Assembly: GCA_041397165.1 (NCBI GenBank) | Contig: JAWKXE010000018.1 | Span: 17,289 to 81,288, forward strand | Source of the DNA: Paracoccaceae bacterium | Lineage (GTDB): Bacteria; Pseudomonadota; Alphaproteobacteria; Rhodobacterales; Rhodobacteraceae | Length of the DNA: 64,000 bases | Reading direction: 5' to 3' | Shown here: one piece after another, positions 27,264 to 60,087 of the stretch | Layout of the letters: each line of letters opens with the position of its first letter | Numbering within the stretch: the stretch's first letter is position 1 | Position numbers and translations under genes: made by a program | Notes under the pieces: generated by a model | The model's database searches: none | What the model was told of the DNA's origin: nothing | What the model saw: the letters and a program-made list of their open reading frames with translations, nothing else

Positions 27264-28054
27264 GCGGGGCGGCGCCCGGCAAGGCCCTGATCACCGGCGG
27301 GGCCGACCGGCTGGGCGCGGTGATGGCGCGATACCTTGCCGCGCGCGGCTGGGACGTGGCGGTGCATTACCACTCCAGCGCGGCGAAGGCCGACGCCCTG
27401 GTCGATGCGCTGCGCGGCAGCGGCGTCCGGGCGGTGGCGCTGCAGGCCGATCTGCTGGACGAGGGCGCGGTCGAGCCGCTGGTCGCGCGGGCGGCCGAGG
27501 CGCTGGGCGGGCCGCTGACCTGCCTGATCAACAACGCCTCGATCTTCGAATACGACACGCTGAAGACCGGCACCCGGTCCAGTTGGGACCGGCATATCGA
27601 ATCGAACCTGCGCGCGCCCTTCGTGCTGAGCCAGCGCTTCGCGGCGCAGGCGCCGGCGGCGGTTCCGGACGCGCTGGGCGAGCCGCGGGCGCGGGCGCTG
27701 ATCGTGAACATGATCGACCAGCGGGTGCGCAAGCTGACGCCCGAGTTCGCCTCCTATACCATCGCCAAGATGGGGCTCTGGGCGCTGACCCAGACGGCGG
27801 CGCAGGGTTTGGCGCCGGACGTGCGGGTAAACGCCATCGGCCCCGGGCCGACGCTGATCGGTGCCCGCCAGTCCGAGGCGCATTTCGCCCGGCAGCGCGC
27901 CAACACCGTGCTGGGGCGCGGGTCGAACCCCGAGGATATCGCCGCCGCGCTGGGCTATTTCCTCGACGCGCCGGCCGTCACCGGTCAGCTTCTCTGCGTC
28001 GATGGCGGTCAACATCTGGGTTGGAAGACCCCCGACATTCTGGGCCTCGAATAA
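27260..28054 (+). CDS. SDR-family oxidoreductase (pteridine-reductase-like)
   Basis: ATG at 27260 overlaps the upstream stop. Motifs are ALITGGADRLG, NNAS, YTIAKMGL (YxxxK) and VNAIGPGP. Confidence 0.8.
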   Translation: MSGAAPGKALITGGADRLGAVMARYLAARGWDVAVHYHSSAAKADALVDALRGSGVRAVALQADLLDEGAVEPLVARAAEALGGPLTCLINNASIFEYDTLKTGTRSSWDRHIESNLRAPFVLSQRFAAQAPAAVPDALGEPRARALIVNMIDQRVRKLTPEFASYTIAKMGLWALTQTAAQGLAPDVRVNAIGPGPTLIGARQSEAHFARQRANTVLGRGSNPEDIAAALGYFLDAPAVTGQLLCVDGGQHLGWKTPDILGLE

Positions 28055-28086
28055 CCCGCCGCGAGGGGCGGGAAACCGCCCCGGCA

Positions 28087-28380
28087 GAGCCGAAAATGCG
28101 CATCCTCGAGAAAAGTTTTGCACGGCGCGCGGAAGCGTTACAAACGCGTTACAAAATCTTTAATGTTTTCAATATTTTGCTGGATGGTTGAAAAATTACT
28201 GTTTGAAAACAGAGCGTTACGATTGCGCCCAATTTTTAGGCAAATCAAGGAAGCGGGCCGAAAACAACGAAAATTTCCCGCTCGCGCCGCAATACCCACC
28301 GAGTTATCCACAGATTTGGTGGATGCCTTTTATCTTGCTCTCGACCACGGGACGTTGCAGCAGAGGGGGGAATCAATATC
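28087..28380. promoter_or_regulatory. AT-rich intergenic island upstream of uvrC with a DnaA-box 9-mer and phased GCGTTAC repeats
   Basis: ttatccaca at 28304-28312. GCGTTAC at 28135, 28146 (11-bp phase) and 28214. Palindrome ctgttt-ga-aaacag at 28199-28212. The local composition is far below the window's G+C. Confidence 0.4.
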
Positions 28381-28389
28381 TTGCGTATC

Positions 28390-30279
28390 ATGACGACGAC
28401 TTCCGACCCAGAGACCGGCGAAACCCCGCCCGCGCCCGTCACCGGGCACGCGGTGATCGCGGGCTATCTCAAGACGCTCGACGGCTCGCCCGGGGTCTAC
28501 CGGATGCTCGATGCCCAGGCGCGGGTGCTCTATGTCGGCAAGGCGCGCAACCTGCGCGCGCGGGTGTCGAGCTATGCCCGGCCCGGCGGGCATTCGGGGC
28601 GGATCGCGCGGATGATCCGCGAAACCGCCTCGATGATGTTCCTGACGACGCGGACCGAGACCGAGGCGCTGCTCTTGGAGCAGAACCTGATCAAGCAGCT
28701 GAAGCCGCGCTATAACGTGCTGTTGCGCGACGACAAGTCCTTCCCCAACGTGCTGGTCACCGACCATCCGTTCCCGATGATCAAGAAGCATCGCGGGGCG
28801 AAGAAGGAGAAGGGCAGCTATTATGGCCCCTTCGCCAGCGCCGGCGCGGTGAACCGGGCGCTGGCGCAGTTGCAGCGGGTGTTCCTGTTGCGCAACTGCT
28901 CGGACGCGATGTTCGAAAGCCGCACCCGGCCCTGCCTGCAATACCAGATCAAGCGCTGCACCGCGCCCTGCGTCGGCAAGCTGTCCGAGGCCGACTATGC
29001 CGACGCGGTGCGCGATGCCGAACGCTATCTTTCGGGGCGGTCGACCCAGATCCAGGAAAAGCTGGCGGGCGAGATGCAGGCGGCCTCGGACGCGATGGAA
29101 TTCGAGAAGGCCGCCGCCCTGCGCGACCGGATCAAGGCGCTGACCCAGGTGCAGACGGCGCAGGGCATCAACCCGCGCGCCACGGCCGAGGCCGATGTGA
29201 TCGCGCTGCATCTGGACAGTGGCCAGGCCTGCGTGCAGGTCTTCTTCATCCGTGGCAACCAGAACTGGGGCAACCGCGATTTCTATCCCCGGGTGGGCAG
29301 CGACGAGATCGAGGCGGCCGAGGTGCTGGAGGCCTTCATCGGCCAGTTCTACGACGCGCACGAGCCGCCGAAGCAGCTGTTGCTGTCGCACGCGATCGAA
29401 GATGCCGATCTGATGGCCGAGGCGCTGTCCGGCAAGGCCGGCCGCAAGGTCGAGCTGCTGCTGCCGCAGCGGGGCGAGAAGGCCGAGCTGGTGGAAAGCG
29501 CGGCACGCAACGCCCGCGAAAGCCTGGCGCGGCGCATGGCCGAGACGGCGACCCAGGCGAAGCTGCTCAGGGGCGTGGCCGAGGCCTTCGGGCTGGAGCG
29601 CCCGCCGGCGCGGATCGAGGTCTATGACAACAGCCACATCCAGGGCGCATATGCGGTGGGTGCGATGATCGTGGCCGGGCCCGAGGGGTTCATGAAGAAC
29701 GCCTATCGCAAGTTCAACATCCGCGGCGACGACCTGACCCCGGGCGACGATTTCGGCATGATGAAAGAGGTGCTGACCCGGCGCTTCAAGCGGCTGTTGA
29801 AGGAGGATCCCGAGCGGGAAGAGGGCCATTGGCCCGACCTGCTGCTGATCGACGGCGGGGCGGGGCAGGTTTCCGCCGTCAAGGCGATCATGGATCAGAT
29901 GGGGGTCGCCGATATTCCGATGGTGGGGGTGGCGAAGGGGATCGACCGCGATGCCGGCAAGGAGGAGTTCCACCGCCCCGGCGCGCGGCCCTTCGCGCTG
30001 CGCCACAACGATCCGGTGCTTTACTTCATCCAGCGGCTCAGGGACGAGGCGCACCGCTTTGCCATCGGCACCCACCGCGCCAAGCGGGCCAAGGCGGTGG
30101 GGGCGACGCCGCTCGACGACATCCCCGGCGTCGGCGCGACGCGCAAGCGCGCGCTGCTGCAGCATTTCGGTTCGGCCAAGGCGGTCAGCCGGGCGGCGCT
30201 GGCCGATCTGAAGGCGGTCGAGGGGGTGTCGGACAATCTGGCCGAGACGATCTACGACTTCTTCCACGAGCAGGGCTGA
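28390..30279 (+). CDS. uvrC: excinuclease ABC subunit C
   Basis: GIY-YIG N-terminus ([25 protein letters not shown]), a UvrBC domain, an endonuclease V-like domain and a C-terminal (HhH)2 ([18 protein letters not shown]). The ORF opens at 28381 (TTG); ATG 28390 is preferred. Confidence 0.93.
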
Positions 30280-35834: not shown

Positions 35835-36800
35835 TCACCCGATCAGCGCGGCGGCGAAAAACAGCAAGGGGATCAGCCCGGCATCGCGGTTCGAGCGGAA
35901 CAGCATGAGCTGGCGTTCCGGGTCGTCGAGCTTGAGGATGCGCATCTGCCAGACCATGTGCCAGCCCATCGCCACCACGCCCATCAGCGACAGAAGCAGC
36001 ACGATGGGGTTGTCGTTGAAGCCCACCAGCGTGGCGATCACGGCGAAGCCCAGCAGGCTGAGGGTGGCGACGAAGAACCGTCTGAGCCAGCGCGGCGTGC
36101 CGTCGCCAAAGAGCCGCGCGGTCGATTTCACCCCGATCAGCGCGTCGTCCTCGATATCCTGCAACGCATAGATCGTGTCATAGAAGAGCGTCCAGGCGAT
36201 GCCGGCCAGATAGAGGATCACCGCCGGCGGCGCCAGCGTGCCGGAATGCGCCGTCCAGGCCAGCAGCGCCCCCCAGTTGAAGGCGATGCCCAGGAAGACC
36301 TGCGGCCACCAGGTGAAGCGCTTGGCGAAGGGATAGACCGCCACGGGCAAGAGCGACAGGATGCCGAGCAGGATCGCATTGCGGTTGAAGGTCAGCAGGA
36401 TCGCGAAGGCAATGAGCGCCTGCAGCGCCATCCACACCACCGCCTGCCGCGTGCTGACCTGCCCCGAGGGGATGGGCCGCGACCGGGTGCGCTCGACCTG
36501 GGCGTCGATCTTGCGGTCGGTGATGTCGTTCCAGGTGCAGCCCGCCCCGCGCATCAGCCAGGCGCCCATGGCGCAACCCGCGAAGATCCAGGCATCGAAC
36601 CAGCGGTATTGCCCGTCCTGCAGCATGGCCAGCACCAGCCCCCACCAGCACGGAATCAGCAGAAGCCAGGTGCCGATCGGCCTATCGGCGCGGCTGAGCC
36701 GCAGATAGGGGCGCGTCCAGCCCGGGGCGAGGGTATCGACCCAGTTGCCTTTCACCGCGTCGGCGACCTGTCCCTCTGGCGTCTGCTTGTCACTGGTCAT
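35835..36800 (-). CDS. ubiA: 4-hydroxybenzoate polyprenyltransferase
   Basis: ATG at 36800 (MTSDKQ...). Motifs are NDITDRKIDAQVERTRSRP and YDTIYALQDIEDD (the two Asp-rich motifs). Multi-TM. Confidence 0.9.
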   Translation of the reverse strand: MTSDKQTPEGQVADAVKGNWVDTLAPGWTRPYLRLSRADRPIGTWLLLIPCWWGLVLAMLQDGQYRWFDAWIFAGCAMGAWLMRGAGCTWNDITDRKIDAQVERTRSRPIPSGQVSTRQAVVWMALQALIAFAILLTFNRNAILLGILSLLPVAVYPFAKRFTWWPQVFLGIAFNWGALLAWTAHSGTLAPPAVILYLAGIAWTLFYDTIYALQDIEDDALIGVKSTARLFGDGTPRWLRRFFVATLSLLGFAVIATLVGFNDNPIVLLLSLMGVVAMGWHMVWQMRILKLDDPERQLMLFRSNRDAGLIPLLFFAAALIG

Positions 36801-36827
36801 ATGGTCGGGCCCAATCGTGAGGACGGA

Positions 36828-37556
36828 ATGAAAGCGGCGAAGATCAGGCTTTATGTAGAGCATCCCCTTGGGGAAGGGCAAACCGTTCCTTTGAGCCGGG
36901 AGCAGGCGCATTACCTCTTCGGCGTGATGCGGCTGGGGCAGGGCGATGCGGTGGCGCTGTTCAACGGGCGCGACGGCGAATGGCGGGCCGAGGTGGCGAG
37001 CGCGGCCAAGCGCGGCGGGGTGCTGGACTGCGTCGCGCAGAGCGGCGACCAGCGCGATCCGCCCGACCTGTGGCTCATGTTCGCGCCGATCAAGAAGGCG
37101 CGCACCGATTTCATCGTCGAGAAGGCGGCCGAGATGGGCGCCGCGAAGATCATGCCGGTGCAGACCGACTTCACCAATTCCGAGCGCATCCGCCAGGACC
37201 GGCTGCAGGCCCACGCCGTCGAGGCGGCCGAGCAATGCGGCGGCACCTTCGTGCCTGAAGTCAGTGAGTTGCAGCGGCTTTCTCAGGTTCTGGATCAATG
37301 GCCATCGGGCCGCCAGCTGATGTTCTGCGACGAGGCCCTGGCGGGGGGCTCGTCTGTCCTGTCGGACAGCCTCGCCGGTCAGCCCTGGGCGATCCTGATC
37401 GGGCCCGAGGGCGGGTTTTCGGAGGCCGAGAGGGACAGGCTGAAAGGGCTGCAATTTGCCCACCCGGTGGCGCTGGGCCCACGCATCCTGCGCGCCGACA
37501 CGGCGGCGGTGGCGGCGATGACGCTGTGGCAGAGGCAGTTGGGGGATTGGCGGTGA
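36828..37556 (+). CDS. rsmE: 16S rRNA (uracil1498-N3)-methyltransferase
   Basis: ATG at 36828 with RLYVEHPL, FNGRDGEW, IGPEGGFSEAE and LGPRILRADTA. Confidence 0.9.
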   Translation: MKAAKIRLYVEHPLGEGQTVPLSREQAHYLFGVMRLGQGDAVALFNGRDGEWRAEVASAAKRGGVLDCVAQSGDQRDPPDLWLMFAPIKKARTDFIVEKAAEMGAAKIMPVQTDFTNSERIRQDRLQAHAVEAAEQCGGTFVPEVSELQRLSQVLDQWPSGRQLMFCDEALAGGSSVLSDSLAGQPWAILIGPEGGFSEAERDRLKGLQFAHPVALGPRILRADTAAVAAMTLWQRQLGDWR

Positions 37557-38068
37557 GCCTTATCCGTCCCGAGGCGCGCGCGGCCCTTTGGCGCTGGCGC
37601 GAGGTGCTGCTGGGCGCCGCGGTGACCGCGCTGGGGGCGAACTGGGCCCTGACCGCCTTCGGGGTGATGGGCTGGCTGGGCTGGCCGGTGCTGGCGCTGG
37701 GGCTGATCCTGCTCATCGCCGGGCTGCAGCGGGCGCGGGTGCGGCCAAGGGCGGGCGGCGCCGGGCTGGTCGAGCTGGACGAGGCGCAGCTGAGTTACTT
37801 CCTGCCCGAGGGCGGGGTGATCGTGCCCCTGGCCGATGTGGTGCGAATCGAGATCGTCACCGCGCCGCCCGACGTGCTGACCTGGGTCTTCACCGATGGC
37901 TCGGGGCGGGCCGCGCGCATCCCGGCCTCGGCGGCGGGGGCCGAGAGGCTGCTCGACGCGCTCAGCCATTTTCCCGGCGCCAGCTTCGGCCAGGTGATCG
38001 AGGCCTCATCGGCGCGCGGGGCAAACGCTTTCGTGATCTGGCGGAAGAACCTGACGCGGTTGCATTGA
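37553..38068 (+). CDS. hypothetical membrane protein
   Basis: GTG at 37553 overlaps the rsmE stop (GTGA). Two TM helices are followed by a soluble domain. The start is tentative. Confidence 0.45.
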   Translation: MSLIRPEARAALWRWREVLLGAAVTALGANWALTAFGVMGWLGWPVLALGLILLIAGLQRARVRPRAGGAGLVELDEAQLSYFLPEGGVIVPLADVVRIEIVTAPPDVLTWVFTDGSGRAARIPASAAGAERLLDALSHFPGASFGQVIEASSARGANAFVIWRKNLTRLH

Positions 38069-55094: not shown

Positions 55095-55184
55095 GCCGAA
55101 CCCTCCGTCCCGGGCCGGTCGGGGCTGGACCCGGCCTTGCCGGATCGGCTAGGGTCGGGCGACGATCCGGGGGGAGCCTTGTTC

Positions 55185-56285
55185 TTGTCACAGCCTGTTC
55201 CGAAACCGGCCGCCCTGGCCGCGGCCCTTGCCTTGGCCGGCGTCCTGGCGGGCTGCGCCGCCGATCCGCTGGCCGATGTGCCGCGGCTCAGCGATGTCGC
55301 CCTGTCGGAACCGGCCCCGGTGGTCGAGGCGGTGGCCGCCCCGGAAGAGACCAGCGACAAGACCGGCTTCTTCCAGCGCCTGATGCGCAAACGCGAAGTG
55401 GCGCCGCCCTCGGCGGAGCCGGCAACGGATGCGACCCCGGACGACAAGACGGGCGAGGCGGTGGCCGAAGCGCCCGATGCGCGGCCCGCACCCGATCCGG
55501 CCCCCGCGCACGAGGCAACCGCCACCCCGGCGGCCCCGGCGGCCCCGGAACGGCGCGGGCTCTTCGGGCTGTTCGGCAAGCGTCCGCCCGACGCCGCCGC
55601 CGAGACAGGCGCCCTTGCCGAAAGCGCCGTGGCCACGCCCGCCGACATCGCGGCGCCCGAGCCCGCCGCCTTGCCCCGGCCCGAGGCCCTCGAGACCCCC
55701 GAGACGCCCACGGCCAAGTCGGCGGAAGCGGCCCGCCCCGGGCTCTTCAGCCGCCGCACGGCCGCCGCCGCGCCCCGGCCCCGGCATGGCGGCCCGGCGC
55801 TGCGCGATGCCGCCCCGGGCGAGGTGCTGCCCTTCGGCGTGGTGGCCCGCGCCTGCCACATGAAGCGTGGCGAGATGGGCAAGGAAGTGGCGAAATACCC
55901 CGAGCGCGGCGCCAAATACCGCGTCTATGACAGCGCGCCCGGCAACCTGGGCCTGCACAGCTTCTATCTGACCGGCTTCGGCGACGGCTGCCCGCGCCAG
56001 GTGACCGCCGCGCTGGCGGTGTTCGGCACCCCCGGGATGTACGAGGCGCTGCGCTATGGTCTGCCGGCCAAGGCGCGCTCGAAGAAGCCCACCGACAAGG
56101 CCTATGAGACGGTGAAATCGCGGCTCTGCGGCGTGTCGCGCAGCCAACCCTGCGGCACGCGGATCGACCGGCTCGAGAAGCACACCGTGTTCCTCAGCCT
56201 CTATGACCGGTTCGAGGATGCCCGCGGCTGGACCAACCTGCTCTTGAGCGAGGGCGAGGTGATCGCGGCCGACCACGACGGCTGA
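55185..56285 (+). CDS. lipoprotein with a Pro/Ala-rich linker and a conserved C-terminal domain
   Basis: TTG at 55185, 8 nt after GGGGGGAG. The lipobox is LALAGVLAGC. The track ORF opens at 55137, so the start is uncertain. Confidence 0.5.
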   Translation: MSQPVPKPAALAAALALAGVLAGCAADPLADVPRLSDVALSEPAPVVEAVAAPEETSDKTGFFQRLMRKREVAPPSAEPATDATPDDKTGEAVAEAPDARPAPDPAPAHEATATPAAPAAPERRGLFGLFGKRPPDAAAETGALAESAVATPADIAAPEPAALPRPEALETPETPTAKSAEAARPGLFSRRTAAAAPRPRHGGPALRDAAPGEVLPFGVVARACHMKRGEMGKEVAKYPERGAKYRVYDSAPGNLGLHSFYLTGFGDGCPRQVTAALAVFGTPGMYEALRYGLPAKARSKKPTDKAYETVKSRLCGVSRSQPCGTRIDRLEKHTVFLSLYDRFEDARGWTNLLLSEGEVIAADHDG

Positions 56286-56666: not shown

Positions 56667-58292
56667 ATGGCCAACGAGAAGAAAGCCCCGCGCCCCAAGG
56701 CGGTGACGCCCAAGGGCTTCCGCGACTATTTCGGCTCGGAAGTGACCGAGCGCGCCGAAATGCTGCGCCAGATCGCCGGGGTCTATCACGCCTATGGCTT
56801 CGACGCGCTGGAATCCTCGGCCGTCGAGACGGTCGAGGCGCTGGGCAAGTTCCTGCCCGACGTCGACCGCCCCAACGAAGGCGTCTTCGCCTGGCAGGAA
56901 AGCGACGAGGACGGCACCTCGGGCGACTGGCTGGCGCTGCGCTATGACCTGACGGCGCCCTTGGCCCGGGTCTATGCCCAGCACCGCAACGATCTGCCCA
57001 CGCCTTACCGGCGCTTCGCCATGGGCCCGGTCTGGCGCAACGAGAAGCCGGGGCCGGGGCGATTCCGTCAGTTCTATCAATGCGATGCCGATACGGTGGG
57101 CTCGGCCAGCCCGGCGGCGGATGCCGAGATTTGTATGATGCTTTGCGACGCCCTTGAGGCCGCAGGTATCGAACGAGGCGACTATGTGGTCCGTGTGAAT
57201 AACCGCAAAGTTTTGAATGGTGTCCTTGAGGTCGCCGGTATCCCAGAAGATGATTTGAAAACTCGTGGCATTGTCTTGCGTGCTATCGACAAGCTGGACC
57301 GTCTTGGATTCCAAGGGGTTCTGGACCTGCTTCGTGATGGGCGAAAAGACGAAAGCGGCGATTTTACCGAAGGTGCAGGACTCTCTGCACAGCAAGCAGA
57401 TCGAGTCATTAAGTTCTTCAATGCGAAGGATGAAGTCCTCGGTCACGCATTTCTAACGGGCGCCGGAGACCTTGAGCGGTCCGGCGATGAGATCGAACGC
57501 GACTTGCGGGCAATTGCGAGTTTTCCTCCGGATGGCTTTGACGAATCTCGAACAGCGGATCTCTACAACCGCCAGCTCTTGGGCTTTCTGGGCGCGCTGG
57601 CTGATGGTTCGAGCACTGGCCTGCAAGGCGTGCAAGAGTTGAAGGACATTGCCCTGATCTGCGCGGCCCAGGGCTATGGCCCCGACCGCATCGTCATCGA
57701 CCCCAGCGTCGTGCGCGGCCTCGGCTATTACACCGGCCCGGTCTTCGAGGCCGAACTGACCTTCGAAATCCTCGACGAGAAGGGCCGCAAGCGGCAATTC
57801 GGCAGCGTTGCCGGCGGCGGGCGCTATGACGATCTGGTGAAACGCTTCACCGGCCAGGCCGTGCCCGCGACCGGCGTCTCGATCGGCGTCGACCGGTTGC
57901 TCGCCGCGCTGCGGGAAAAGGGCCGGATCGGCGCCCGGGCCCAAGGCCCCGTGGTCGTCACCGTGATGGACCGCGACCGCATGGCCGACTACCAGGCCAT
58001 GGTGGGCGAACTGCGCCAGGCCGGCATCCGCGCCGAGGTCTACCTGGGCAACCCGAAGAACTTCGGCAACCAGCTGAAATATGCCGACAAGCGCGAAAGC
58101 CCCGCCGCCGTGATCGAGGGCGAGGACGAGAAGGCGCGCGGCGTCATCCAGATCAAGGACCTGATCCTGGGCGCGCAGATCGCGCAGAACGCCACGCTCG
58201 AGGAATGGAAGGAACGCCCCAGCCAGTTCGAGGTGCCGCGCGACCAGCTGGTCGCCAAGCTGCGCGAGATCCTGAACGGGCAGGCCGGCTGA
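56667..58292 (+). CDS. hisS: histidine--tRNA ligase, unusually long (541 aa) with an internal low-GC segment
   Basis: [18 protein letters not shown], motif 2 [13 protein letters not shown], motif 3 GGGRYDDL...[10 protein letters not shown] and an anticodon-binding C-terminus. See the finding for 57125-57660. Confidence 0.9.
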
Positions 58293-59395
58293 TGCCCCAG
58301 CGCGCCCAGATCCGGGCCGAGGCGGCACGGCTGCGCGGCCTCTTCGAGGCGGCCGGCGCCCAGCCGGTCGAGGCGGCGATCCTGCAACCGGCCGAGACGT
58401 TGCTCGACCTCTATGGCGAGGATATCCGCGGCCGCGCCTATGTGACCTCGGACGCTCTGCGCGGCGAGCAGATGCTGCGCCCCGATTTCACCGTGCCGGT
58501 GGTGCAGATGCATATGGCCATCGGCGCCGAACCCGCCCGCTATACCTATGCCGGCGAGGTCTTCCGCCGCCAGGAAGAGGACGACCGCCGCGCCAACGAA
58601 TACGTTCAGGTGGGTTTCGAGCTGTTCGACCGCGCCAACCCGGCCGAGGCCGATGCCGAGGTCTTCGCCCGCATCCAGGCGGTGCTCGACGGCTTGCCGC
58701 TGCGCGCCTCGACCGGCGATATCGGCATCCTGACGGCGGCCGTCGCGGGGCTTCGGACCACCGCGCGGCGCAAGGCGGCCTTGATGCGCCATATCTGGCG
58801 GCCGCGCCGGTTCCGCGCGCTGATCGAGCGGTTCTCGGGGCGGGCACCGGTGCCGCCCTCGCGCGCCGCGCTGCTGGCCGATCCCGATCCGATGGCGGGG
58901 GCCGGCCCCGAGATCGGGCTGCGAAGCCGTGCCGAGGTGGAAGCGCGGATCGCGGCGCTGCGCGACGATGCGGCGGCGCCGCCGATCTCGGCCGCGCAGG
59001 TCGATCTGATGGACGCGATCCTGGCGGTGCGCGAAACCTTGCCCTTCGCGCTGGAACACCTGCGCGACATCGCCGTCGACCTGCCCGCCATCGCCCCGGC
59101 CGTCGCCCGGCTCGAGGCCCGGGCCGGGGCGCTCTCGGCGCGCGGCGTCGATGTCGCGGGCCTGGATTTCGAGGCCTCCTATGGCCGCACCCAGATGGAA
59201 TATTACGACGGCTTCGTCTTCGGCTTCTATGCCGAGGGCCGGCCCGATCTGCCACCCGTCGCCACCGGCGGGCGCTATGACGCGCTGACCCGGCGGCTGG
59301 GCGCGCTGAGCGGCCATCCCGAACGCGAAATTCCCGCCGTCGGCGGCGTGGTCCGGCCCGAACTGATGCTGGCACTCGGGGGGGCGCGGCCATGA
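58292..59395 (+). CDS. hisZ: ATP phosphoribosyltransferase regulatory subunit
   Basis: ATG at 58292 overlaps the hisS stop. It is a HisS paralog lacking the anticodon domain (LRPDFTVP, YYDGFVFGF, ATGGRYD) and is followed by the short-form hisG. Confidence 0.85.
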   Translation: MPQRAQIRAEAARLRGLFEAAGAQPVEAAILQPAETLLDLYGEDIRGRAYVTSDALRGEQMLRPDFTVPVVQMHMAIGAEPARYTYAGEVFRRQEEDDRRANEYVQVGFELFDRANPAEADAEVFARIQAVLDGLPLRASTGDIGILTAAVAGLRTTARRKAALMRHIWRPRRFRALIERFSGRAPVPPSRAALLADPDPMAGAGPEIGLRSRAEVEARIAALRDDAAAPPISAAQVDLMDAILAVRETLPFALEHLRDIAVDLPAIAPAVARLEARAGALSARGVDVAGLDFEASYGRTQMEYYDGFVFGFYAEGRPDLPPVATGGRYDALTRRLGALSGHPEREIPAVGGVVRPELMLALGGARP

Positions 59396-60087
59396 CGATC
59401 AAGCTGGGCGTGCCCTCGAAGGGGCGGCTGATGGAGAAGACCTTCGACTGGTTCGGCGAACGCGGCGTGACGCTGTCGCGGACCGGGTCCGACCGCGAAT
59501 ATGCCGGCGCGGTCGAGGGCGCGACGGGCGTCGAACTGGTGCTTCTGTCCGCGGGCGAGATCCCGCGCGAACTGGCCGCCGGGCGCATTCACCTCGGCGT
59601 CACCGGCACCGATCTGGTGCGCGAGAAGCTGGGCGGCTGGGAACGCCTGGTCGAGGAGCTGGCGCCGCTGGGCTTCGGTCATGCCGATCTGGTGATCGCG
59701 GTGCCAAGCCTCTGGGCCGATGTCGACACGCTCGACGATCTCGACGCGGCGGCGGCGGCGTTCCGCGCCCGGCACGGCTTCCGGCTGCGCATCGCCACCA
59801 AGTATCACCGCCTGGTGCGCGACTTCCTGCGCGATCACGGCGTCGCCGAATATCAGCTGGTCGACAGCCAGGGCGCGACCGAGGGCACGGTGAAGAACGA
59901 AACCGCCGAGGCGGTGGCCGACATCACTTCGACCGGCGATACGCTGAAGGCGAACCATCTTAAGATGCTGGCCGACGGGCTGGTGCTGCAAAGCCAGGCA
60001 ACGCTCTTTCGGGCGCGCGGCGCCGAGATGTCGGATGCCGACCGCGCGGCACTGGCGGCCCTTCTGGCAAAGCTCGGGCTGAGCTGA
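59392..60087 (+). CDS. hisG: ATP phosphoribosyltransferase (short form)
   Basis: 231 aa with LGVPSKGRL, GVTGTDL and DITSTGDTLKAN. Its ATG overlaps the hisZ stop. Confidence 0.9.
   Translation: MTIKLGVPSKGRLMEKTFDWFGERGVTLSRTGSDREYAGAVEGATGVELVLLSAGEIPRELAAGRIHLGVTGTDLVREKLGGWERLVEELAPLGFGHADLVIAVPSLWADVDTLDDLDAAAAAFRARHGFRLRIATKYHRLVRDFLRDHGVAEYQLVDSQGATEGTVKNETAEAVADITSTGDTLKANHLKMLADGLVLQSQATLFRARGAEMSDADRAALAALLAKLGLS

What the first reader, a model, noticed from the sequence alone, without database searches (positions are those of the whole stretch)
57125..57660. In-frame ~535-bp low-GC patch that replaces and lengthens the insertion domain of hisS
Hand counts of the 60-nt lines from 57121 to 57660 give 45-60% G+C (mean about 53%). 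The next line (57661-57720) is about 78%, and the rest of hisS looks like the ~two-thirds G+C window. Inside the patch, third codon positions switch from almost exclusively G/C to a mixture (ttt, aat, aaa, gat, ctt, cgt, gca). The frame is unbroken. The edges still read as HisS ([51 protein letters not shown]). The centre ([68 protein letters not shown]) is roughly 35-40 aa longer than I remember for alphaproteobacterial HisS: 541 aa here against about 500. Sharp compositional borders inside an essential aminoacyl-tRNA synthetase gene suggest import of a foreign or divergent domain by recombination. The paralogous hisZ is the next gene, overlapping the hisS stop by one base.
Basis: partly seen in the sequence, partly recalled or inferred. 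Interest (0 to 1): 0.7.

Follow-up and report, generated by a model that had tools for sequence, protein, structure and literature searches.

The report
Swapped low-GC cassette inside hisS
About 600 bases in the middle of the essential histidyl-tRNA synthetase gene were replaced by recombination with a longer, GC-poorer version from another marine Rhodobacterales lineage, and this same stretch of the gene turns out to be swapped between species across the whole family.

Summary
hisS (56667-58292, 541 aa) contains the lowest-GC stretch of the window. Third-codon-position GC is 0.54 over codons 132-323 (57060-57635) against 0.91 in the rest of the gene (likelihood ratio 96; permutation maximum 22).

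The outer parts of hisS, plus hisZ, hisG and gene order, tie the host to an Aquicoccus-like lineage (92% aa). The patch is closest to a different clade (P0006/L060/L053) that ranks about 100th or lower for those host markers. No donor was found; the 44-aa insert (V257-Y300) is an orphan.

This is not a one-off. About half of 199 Rhodobacterales HisRS carry a "long" allele with an unalignable insert at the same site (median pairwise identity 23%). Two Sediminimonas qiaohouensis genomes, 99-100% identical nearby, differ only in this ~500-bp segment. 41 of 42 other long alleles have AT-shifted third codon positions (about -0.27); short alleles do not.

The insert is under purifying selection (dN/dS 0.09 in one pair) and is modelled as an extra helical hairpin.

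It is a mosaic core gene, which is a known kind. The cause of the AT shift and any role of the hairpin remain open.

The parts
56667..58292 (+). hisS coding sequence (541 aa), class II histidyl-tRNA synthetase
   Evidence: ORF. Pfam tRNA-synt_His and HGTP_anticodon. 100% identical to a public MAG protein annotated histidine--tRNA ligase [Paracoccaceae bacterium]. Foldseek and phmmer hit HisRS structures.
57060..57662 (+). Replaced (imported) tract: low-GC3 segment, codons 132-332
   Evidence: The maximum-likelihood GC3 change-point is 57060-57635. Informative amino-acid sites of the P0006/L060 type run from residue 133 to 332. Ranks invert against hisZ, hisG and the hisS outer parts. No exact 17-mer is shared with 80 related hisS genes across codons ~161-330.
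57060..57434 (+). 5' part of the tract (codons 132-256): conserved helices and strands of the insertion domain, of the 'EICMM...GI(A/P)EDD' sequence type
   Evidence: Nearest neighbours are L087 (P0006), L060, L168 and L053 at 84-86% aa. The host-like L085 and L084 rank 143 and 161 of 169. The GC3 deficit of codons 136-185 is unique to this window. AF2 pLDDT is 86-97.
57435..57566 (+). Hypervariable insert V257-Y300 (44 aa) that is absent from short alleles
   Evidence: Alignments. No relative above 27% identity among 199 HisRS. An insert-centred 96-aa query (residues 240-335) found nothing in 5.8 billion proteins. No Pfam family. AF2 models two short helices (253-264, 273-284) plus loops, pLDDT 57-71. 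Net charge is -7 over residues 250-300.
57567..57662 (+). 3' part of the tract (codons 301-332): helices that rejoin the catalytic domain, including the N301 / L307 motif shared by long alleles
   Evidence: The (W/R/Y)N-x5-(Y/H)L motif is seen in the alignments. C332 is shared with the P0006/L053/L060 group. pLDDT is above 90.
56997..57059 (+). Upstream homology anchor (motif-2 block, codons 111-131), the inferred left crossover zone
   Evidence: Amino acids here are nearly invariant. 30% of 80 related loci share an exact 17-mer or longer in codons 121-130. The left GC3 breakpoint is at 57051-57075. The crossover itself is inferred.
57663..57791 (+). Downstream homology anchor (codons 333-375, includes [15 protein letters not shown] / motif 3), the inferred right crossover zone
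   Evidence: The last donor-type site is at residue 332 and the first host-type site is at 375. Exact shared 17-mers reappear from codon 331. The crossover is inferred.
58292..59395 (+). hisZ (context; used as a marker of the host lineage)
   Evidence: Pfam tRNA-synt_His without an anticodon domain. The best relative is L085, and the patch-type loci rank 105-117 of 139.
59392..60087 (+). hisG (context; host marker)
   Evidence: Pfam HisG. The patch-type loci L087 and L060 rank 105 and 101 of 128.

Best explanation
The window's hisS is a mosaic allele. About 600 bp (about 57060-57662, codons 132-332) encode almost the whole insertion domain. This stretch was replaced by homologous recombination with the corresponding stretch of a hisS from a different Rhodobacterales lineage whose synonymous sites are less GC-rich. 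The crossovers fell in the nearly invariant motif-2 and motif-3 blocks on either side.

The imported stretch is a 'long' allele. It carries a 44-aa insert (V257-Y300), modelled as an extra helix-loop-helix on the surface of the helical insertion domain.

Shown: the compositional break, the phylogenetic incongruence, and the existence of the same cassette exchange in related genomes.

Inferred: the crossover positions, the lower-GC donor, and the vector. The vector may be transformation or gene-transfer-agent-mediated recombination; it was not tested.

Family-wide, this segment behaves as an exchangeable, highly polymorphic cassette. Each insert type is functionally constrained, and its synonymous sites sit about 0.27 below the host's GC3. 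The reason is not established. My preferred reading is a regional lower equilibrium GC. One possible cause is that unalignable alleles cannot take part in the recombination-linked GC enrichment that acts on the flanks. The alternative is perpetual fresh import from a low-GC source.
For: Composition:
- GC3 is 0.54 inside against 0.91 outside (likelihood ratio 96 against a permutation maximum of 22).
- It is the lowest-GC stretch of the window.

Incongruence:
- Spearman -0.58 between outer and patch identity.
- Bootstrap confidence intervals have opposite signs for the two partitions.
- L087, L060, L168 and L053 rank 1-4 of 169 for the patch, but 63-120 for the hisS outer parts and 105-117 for hisZ. 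L085 ranks 1 for both the outer parts and hisZ, and 143 for the patch.
- Shared gene order AcrB-hyp-SlyX-hisS-hisZ-hisG-DUF1489 with L085.

Window-specific sign of a lower-GC donor:
- Codons 136-185 have a GC3 deficit of -0.31 (z = -5.3). Other long alleles, including the nearest patch relatives, have host-level GC3 there.

The same process caught in relatives:
- Two Sediminimonas qiaohouensis genomes are 99-100% identical around hisS except for about 500 bp at 48-70% identity (dS 1.56 in the conserved part of the patch against 0.09 in the outer parts).
- L084 (long) and L085 (short) differ only there.
- L082 and L086 share a cassette at 92-98% nt identity in flanks that are 89-92% identical.
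- Ruegeria profundi has Ruegeria-type flanks (96%) with a foreign-type patch.
- 41 pairs have at least 95% outer identity but under 80% patch identity.

Cassette properties:
- 96 of 199 alleles are long, with median core identity 23%.
- There is no DNA-level similarity between cores in any frame or strand.
- Core dN/dS is 0.09 with dS equal to the flanks in L014/L016.
- The GC3 deficit is present in 25 of 25 other genome-derived long alleles except L071, and in 16 of 16 from metagenomes. It is absent in 56 short alleles.
- The deficit is regional, not tied to amino-acid constraint. It is -0.16 even at invariant residues of long alleles, while variable residues in the flanks deviate by only -0.03.
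Against: - No donor was found. The best match for the conserved part of the patch is 84-86% aa and 75% nt. Nothing matches the insert. The import is therefore either old or from an unsampled lineage.
- If the import is old, the low GC3 should have ameliorated unless something maintains it.
- The comparison groups were chosen after looking at the data. One search is the independent check.
- The protein windows used are short and highly conserved.
- The closest relative with a recognisably homologous insert (Rhodosalinus K401) also has a GC3 dip. Part of the composition signal is therefore a class property and not evidence of a recent event.
- The contig comes from a MAG, and read support could not be examined.
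Confidence: 0.8

Rival explanations
1. There was no import in this lineage. The long allele was inherited vertically, and a local force lowers GC3 in place. Candidates are weak amino-acid constraint, translational-accuracy selection, a rare-codon cluster for co-translational folding of the insertion domain, or absence of GC-biased conversion.
For: - Low GC3 is a class property of long alleles in hosts of every GC content.
- Core GC3 partly tracks host GC3 (slope 0.56).
- L014/L016 keep GC3 of about 0.5 in the patch after 27% of synonymous sites there have changed.
Against: - It does not explain the rank inversion of relatives between patch and flanks.
- It does not explain the unique upstream extension of the dip in this window.
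- Weak constraint is ruled out as the cause. Variable flank columns deviate by only -0.03, while invariant columns inside long-allele patches deviate by -0.16.
- A folding-pause explanation would also predict a dip in short alleles, and there is none.
Confidence: 0.1
2. The patch is an assembly artefact. The MAG assembler threaded a variant path from a co-occurring population between shared flanks.
For: The source is a metagenome-assembled genome. Fragmented or duplicated hisS assemblies exist in public data (P0002; L168).
Against: - Both flanks have the same composition, relatives and gene order, so two switches within 600 bp would be needed.
- The frame is intact.
- A bubble path requires flanks that are identical at k-mer level in both populations. 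That would itself be the natural polymorphism documented in isolate genomes (S. qiaohouensis DSM strain versus MAG, Rhodosalinus K401, Ruegeria profundi).
- This rival is not testable here because no reads are available.
Confidence: 0.05
3. The extra 44 aa are the remnant of a selfish in-frame element, such as a Rickettsia-palindromic-element-like repeat, a MITE or a mini-intein, and not part of a recombined allele.
For: It is an in-frame, AT-richer insertion at a surface site of an essential gene. Insertions of varied sequence occur at the same site in many alphaproteobacteria.
Against: - There is no second copy and no palindrome in the window.
- There is no Pfam family.
- The cores of different alleles share no DNA similarity on either strand, whereas repeat families do.
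- 44 aa without intein splicing motifs is too small for an intein.
- The low-GC tract, at about 600 bp, is far longer than the insert.
- Long alleles share boundary motifs, which indicates a homologous protein segment.
Confidence: 0.03
4. The patch results from programmed diversification (a diversity-generating retroelement) or from gene conversion by the paralogue hisZ.
For: The centre is hypervariable, and a paralogue lies immediately downstream.
Against: - There is no template repeat of the patch anywhere in the 64-kb window.
- There is no similarity of the patch to hisZ at DNA or protein level.
- Same-allele pairs show purifying selection and a normal dS.
Confidence: 0.01

Closest known systems
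'Novel allelic replacement' of core genes by homologous recombination with distant relatives in marine Roseobacter-group populations (e.g. PMC9426536)
   Same: The organismal group and the signature are the same: a core gene whose synonymous divergence is far above the genomic background because a divergent allele replaced the resident one.
   Different: Here only an internal ~0.5-0.6 kb domain is replaced, not the whole gene. The same segment is replaced again and again across genera, with dozens of unalignable variants. hisS is not mentioned in the two such papers I searched by text.
Mosaic genes with conserved ends and a hypervariable, laterally exchanged centre. The classic examples, from my own knowledge, are the flagellin fliC central domain in Enterobacteriaceae and mosaic pbp genes in Streptococcus and Neisseria.
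   Same: Conserved flanking blocks act as recombination anchors. The central region is highly polymorphic, compositionally different and phylogenetically incongruent.
   Different: Those are surface antigens or drug targets with a known selective agent. HisRS is a cytoplasmic housekeeping enzyme and no agent is known. No dN/dS above 1 was seen here.
Alphaproteobacterial 'delta-G-1' type HisRS, described as a special HisRS with several unique insertions that co-evolved with tRNA-His lacking G-1 (PMC3064791, citing Ardell and Andersson 2006 and Wang et al. 2007)
   Same: The taxonomic range is the same (Rhodobacterales, Rhizobiales, Caulobacterales). The protein is closest to eukaryote, cyanobacterial and Bacteroidota-type HisRS structures rather than to the E. 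coli type. Inserts at this site also occur in distant alphaproteobacterial members.
   Different: Those lineage-wide insertions are fixed features linked to tRNA identity. The insert here is polymorphic within species and absent from half of the family, so it cannot be required for delta-G-1 recognition.
Rickettsia palindromic elements (in-frame selfish repeats inside essential genes; own knowledge)
   Same: An in-frame insertion of about 40-50 aa, AT-richer than its surroundings, tolerated at a surface site of an essential alphaproteobacterial protein.
   Different: There is no repeat family, no palindrome and no DNA similarity between inserts.

Membership tests
Class II histidyl-tRNA synthetase (HisS) | HisRS catalytic core plus C-terminal HGTP anticodon-binding domain | tested here: met
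   Pfam PF13393 (E 2.6e-36) and PF03129 (E 1.2e-9). HisRS structures are the top hits by sequence and by fold.
Class II histidyl-tRNA synthetase (HisS) | Intact reading frame and conserved motif-2 and motif-3 blocks | tested here: met
   Unbroken 541-aa ORF. [25 protein letters not shown] and [15 protein letters not shown] are invariant or nearly invariant across 82 homologues.
Alphaproteobacterial delta-G-1 type HisRS | Cognate tRNA-His lacks G-1 and has A73 | not testable with these tools
   There is no tRNA gene in the window.
Mosaic gene made by homologous recombination | Sharp compositional discontinuity within an intact gene | tested here: met
   (likelihood ratio 96 against a permutation maximum of 22).
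Mosaic gene made by homologous recombination | Different phylogenetic affinities of segment and flanks | tested here: met
   No formal GARD/RDP or tree-topology test was run.
Mosaic gene made by homologous recombination | Identifiable donor lineage with high nucleotide identity to the segment | tested here: not met
   Best is 75% nt and 86% aa for the conserved part, and nothing for the insert.
Mosaic gene made by homologous recombination | Breakpoints in sequence conserved enough to support strand exchange | tested here: met
   Shared exact 17-mers flank the patch but are absent from it. The breakpoints lie next to motif 2 and motif 3.
In-frame selfish repeat (RPE/MITE-like) | Multiple similar copies and/or terminal inverted repeats | tested here: not met
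   Only 64 kb of the genome was available.
Intein | Splicing blocks or Hint domain, at least ~130 aa | tested here: not met
   The insert is 44 aa and has no Pfam hit.
Diversity-generating retroelement target | Nearby template repeat and reverse transcriptase | tested here: not met
   No repeat of the patch in the window. The rest of the genome was not available.

The most novel reading that the evidence does not exclude
The surface hairpin of the HisRS insertion domain may be an arms-race or recognition interface. An unknown antagonist or partner would bind it, for example a phage protein that targets the host synthetase (as T4 Vs targets ValRS, from my own knowledge), a toxin, or a natural HisRS inhibitor. 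Rare insert types would then be favoured. That would explain why dozens of ancient, individually constrained allele types persist and keep being exchanged across genera.

A second unconventional reading is also not excluded. The constant AT shift of these unalignable cassettes could be a sub-genic footprint of recombination-dependent GC enrichment (GC-biased gene conversion) being switched off where alleles cannot pair.
Probability: 0.12. Interest if true: 0.8.

Novelty: new member of a known kind. Interest (0 to 1): 0.48.

Why it matters
For annotation, nothing is wrong. This is a functional hisS with a long insertion domain, not a pseudogene or a foreign gene.

For evolution, it gives a clean sub-genic example of core-gene mosaicism in Rhodobacterales. 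It also exposes a pattern that I could not find described. One domain of an essential aminoacyl-tRNA synthetase exists as roughly 80 or more mutually unalignable variants. These variants are swapped even between conspecific genomes, and they are almost always AT-shifted at synonymous sites regardless of host GC.

That pattern provides a natural experiment on two questions. The first is what keeps GC3 high in GC-rich bacteria (selection, biased conversion or origin). The second is whether a cytoplasmic housekeeping enzyme can be under frequency-dependent selection.

There is also a practical warning. hisS is a poor single-gene phylogenetic marker in this group, and compositional HGT detectors will flag it.

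Tried and rejected
- **Donor search.** I used blastn of patch and flanks against 80 genome loci and against all 169 loci held. I ran an insert-centred protein search (residues 240-335; no hits) and a patch-only protein search, which returned mostly fragments at no more than 86% over the conserved half. The plasmid collection returned only ordinary chromid hisS. No donor and no mobile vector was found.
- **Embedded elements.** Rfam gave only a sub-threshold chance hit outside the patch. There is no sigma-70-like promoter, and terminator-like hairpins are at chance level. There are no internal repeats.
- **hisZ or a DGR template as source.** There is no similarity anywhere in the window.
- **Hidden DNA homology between insert types** (inversion or frame shift): none.
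- **Weak-constraint or translational-accuracy explanation of low GC3:** rejected.
- **Amelioration test on L014/L016.** It is inconclusive without an outgroup. Observed W/S differences fit both a stationary GC3 of about 0.5 and slow amelioration.
- **Literature.** Four full-text searches found no description of this hisS polymorphism. Ardell and Andersson 2006 is not held.
- **Fold search.** It only recovered HisRS structures, and none is of the alphaproteobacterial type.
Full report
**1. The observation**

The window carries hisS at 56667-58292 (+), 541 aa. It is followed by hisZ (58292-59395, sharing one base with the hisS stop) and hisG (59392-60087).

The drop is almost entirely at third codon positions. 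GC1 and GC2 barely move, while GC3 falls from about 0.9 to about 0.5. A two-breakpoint likelihood fit places the low-GC3 block at codons 132-323 (57060-57635). GC3 is 0.54 inside and 0.91 outside, with a likelihood ratio of 96 against a maximum of 22 in 200 permutations. The patch therefore begins about 65 nt earlier than reported.

Forty-two other coding-like ORFs in the window show nothing comparable. The only other AT-rich spot is an ordinary intergenic spacer upstream of uvrC.

**2. What the protein looks like**

The sequence is 100% identical to a public protein from a Paracoccaceae MAG. Related Rhodobacterales HisRS fall into two length classes, 490-505 aa and about 520-555 aa.

Long forms carry extra residues at one site of the insertion domain. 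In the window these are V257-Y300. AlphaFold2 with an 82-sequence alignment predicts the insertion domain with pLDDT 86-97. It models the extra residues as two short helices plus loops at pLDDT 57-71. These are inserted between two confidently predicted helices.

The insert has no Pfam family. It has no relative above 27% identity among 199 HisRS, and an insert-centred query (residues 240-335) found nothing in a 5.8-billion-protein search. Residues 250-300 carry a net charge of -7, and 79% of long-allele cores are net negative, which argues against RNA binding.

In the Thermus HisRS-tRNA complex, the insertion domain clamps the acceptor stem and moves as a rigid body (PMC4357726). There is no solved structure of the alphaproteobacterial type.

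**3. The window's allele is a mosaic**

Outside the patch, the nearest HisRS are P0021, P0032 and P0019 (an Aquicoccus-like group, 92% aa). Their loci share the window's gene order AcrB-hypothetical-SlyX-hisS-hisZ-hisG-DUF1489. Inside the patch, insert excluded, the nearest are P0006/L087, L060, L168, L053 and P0078 (76-86%). Their flanks are only 79-85% identical to the window's.

- Over 198 comparators, outer identity and patch identity are negatively correlated (Spearman -0.58).
- Bootstrap gives the outer parts 9.5 points closer to the host-like group (CI 6.5-12.6). It gives the patch 14 points closer to the other group (CI 7.5-21). The nearest neighbour never crosses.
- These groups were picked after inspection. 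As an independent check I ranked all held loci by hisZ, hisG, the hisS outer parts and the hisS patch. L085 ranks 1, 45, 1 and 143. L087 ranks 117, 105, 63 and 1.
- Informative amino-acid sites switch type between residues 30 and 133, and again between 332 and 375. This matches the GC3 breakpoints.
- Exact 17-mers shared with other roseobacter hisS genes occur all along the flanks. They include the motif-2 and motif-3 blocks next to the breakpoints. None occur in codons ~161-330.

This is the expected layout for crossovers in conserved anchors around a diverged centre.

**4. It is one case of a family-wide cassette**

Two Sediminimonas qiaohouensis genomes are 99-100% identical around hisS except for about 500 bp in hisS codons ~167-340, where identity is 48-70%. 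There dS is 1.56 in the conserved part of the patch against 0.09 in the outer parts.

- HLUCCO07 (long) and a close relative (short) differ only in that segment. HLUCCO07's insert resembles that of Oceanicola granulosus.
- L082 and L086 share one cassette at 92-98% nt identity in flanks that are 89-92% identical.
- Ruegeria profundi has flanks 96% identical to other Ruegeria but a patch of another sequence type.
- Forty-one pairs in the 199-sequence set have at least 95% outer identity and under 80% patch identity.
- Among 96 long alleles, the median pairwise identity of the core is 23%, and only 17 of 4,560 pairs reach 60%.
- The cores share no DNA similarity in any frame or strand.

Long alleles still share boundary motifs, notably (W/R/Y)N-x5-(Y/H)L. 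In the one close same-allele pair with DNA, the core has dN/dS 0.09 and the same dS as the flanks. The inserts are therefore constrained protein, not junk or hypermutating sequence.

Inserts at the same site also occur in distant (52-57% identical) alphaproteobacterial hisS from soil and sludge metagenomes.

**5. The composition signal has two layers**

The first layer is a class effect. In 21 long alleles, the mean GC3 deficit is -0.2 to -0.36. It is centred on the insert and fades about 40 codons to each side. In 57 short alleles it is about 0.

Core GC3 is below flank GC3 in 41 of 42 long alleles other than the window's. The mean deficit in the genome-derived set is -0.27, and the slope against host GC3 is 0.56. 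The one exception is a GC-rich, proline-rich insert type (L071).

The deficit is not a by-product of weak amino-acid constraint. Variable columns in the flanks deviate by -0.03. Invariant columns inside long-allele patches deviate by -0.16, and the same columns in short alleles by +0.02. It is therefore a regional, DNA-level property of long cassettes.

The second layer is specific to this window. Its dip extends upstream over codons 136-185 with a deficit of -0.31. The other 85 hisS genes average -0.01 with sd 0.06 (z = -5.3). The nearest relatives of that sub-segment have GC3 of 0.83-0.97 there. This is the best evidence that the tract came from a genome with lower GC3 and has not yet equilibrated.

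**6. What remains open**

No donor was found in genomes, metagenomes, viral contigs, phages or plasmids. The import is therefore from an unsampled lineage, or it is old.

I could not determine why long cassettes are AT-shifted everywhere. L014 and L016 have changed at 27% of synonymous sites in the patch yet both sit near GC3 0.5. The counts fit either a stationary low equilibrium or slow amelioration.

I favour a maintained lower equilibrium, because even the lowest-GC hosts show the dip and no reservoir without a dip was seen. This is an inference.

No dN/dS above 1 was seen, so diversifying selection is not shown. A neutral model of a tolerated surface hairpin shuffled by frequent recombination is the default.

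**7. Rivals**

- Vertical inheritance with an in-place compositional force fails on the incongruence and on the unique upstream extension.
- An assembly chimera would need two switches in 600 bp between identical flanks. The same polymorphism exists in isolate genomes. Reads were not available.
- A selfish repeat, an intein, a DGR or conversion from hisZ find no support.
- Rfam and promoter or terminator scans give no sign of an embedded element.

**8. Comparison with the known, and verdict**

Replacement of core-gene alleles by recombination with distant relatives is an established theme in Roseobacter-group population genomics (PMC9426536). Mosaic genes with conserved ends and variable centres are classical.

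I found no description of this hisS cassette. The search covers open-access text only.

It is a new member of a known kind. It comes with an unexplained family-wide regularity (extreme allele diversity plus a constant AT shift) that merits a focused study. Interest is moderate.

Noticed in passing
window 28075-28375: AT-rich (GC 0.41-0.53) spacer between an SDR-like ORF ending at 28054 and a uvrC-like ORF at 28381-30279. It is the second-lowest GC in the window and looks like an ordinary promoter region.
   Followed up: partly
window 55429-55900 (ORF 55137-56285): Very GC-rich (0.80-0.84) Ala/Pro-rich part of a hypothetical 382-aa ORF between the AcrB-like gene and hisS. A 324-aa ORF without Pfam domains lies at the same position in L085, and no gene is called there in L084; homology was not tested.
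   Followed up: no
P0026, P0054, P0078 (proteins) and L071: A different insert type at the same HisRS site. It is proline-rich and GC-rich ('NGQAAPAPPPRAGASHPPS'), it is shared by otherwise diverged HisRS, and in L071, the only one of these with DNA examined, it has no GC3 deficit. It is the single exception to the AT-shift rule.
   Followed up: partly
P0002 (686 aa, ENA): A HisRS with an internal tandem duplication of residues ~59-247. It is probably an assembly artefact and carries a short allele.
   Followed up: partly
L168 2501-4116: hisS is split into two ORFs by a frameshift inside the cassette region, on a 3.55x long-read contig. A sequencing error is likely.
   Followed up: no
L141, L144, L148, L153, L160, L161: Distant alphaproteobacterial hisS (52-57% identical) from soil and sludge metagenomes also carry variable inserts at the same site, with GC3 0.41-0.58 against 0.71-0.83 in their flanks.
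   Followed up: partly
window 37071-37250 in ORF 35838-37559 (-): A milder intragenic GC3 dip (0.62 over 60 codons against 0.82 for the gene). It is the only other internal dip among 42 coding-like ORFs.
   Followed up: no
window 57782-57855 (-): A weak Rfam match to naRNA4 (26 bits against a gathering score of 59.5; E 0.069). It lies inside hisS downstream of the patch and is almost certainly chance.
   Followed up: no
window 57112-57126: A terminator-like hairpin followed by a T-rich run, about 50-65 nt inside the left edge of the low-GC tract. The scan found 3 such sites against 1.4 expected, so it is probably chance.
   Followed up: no
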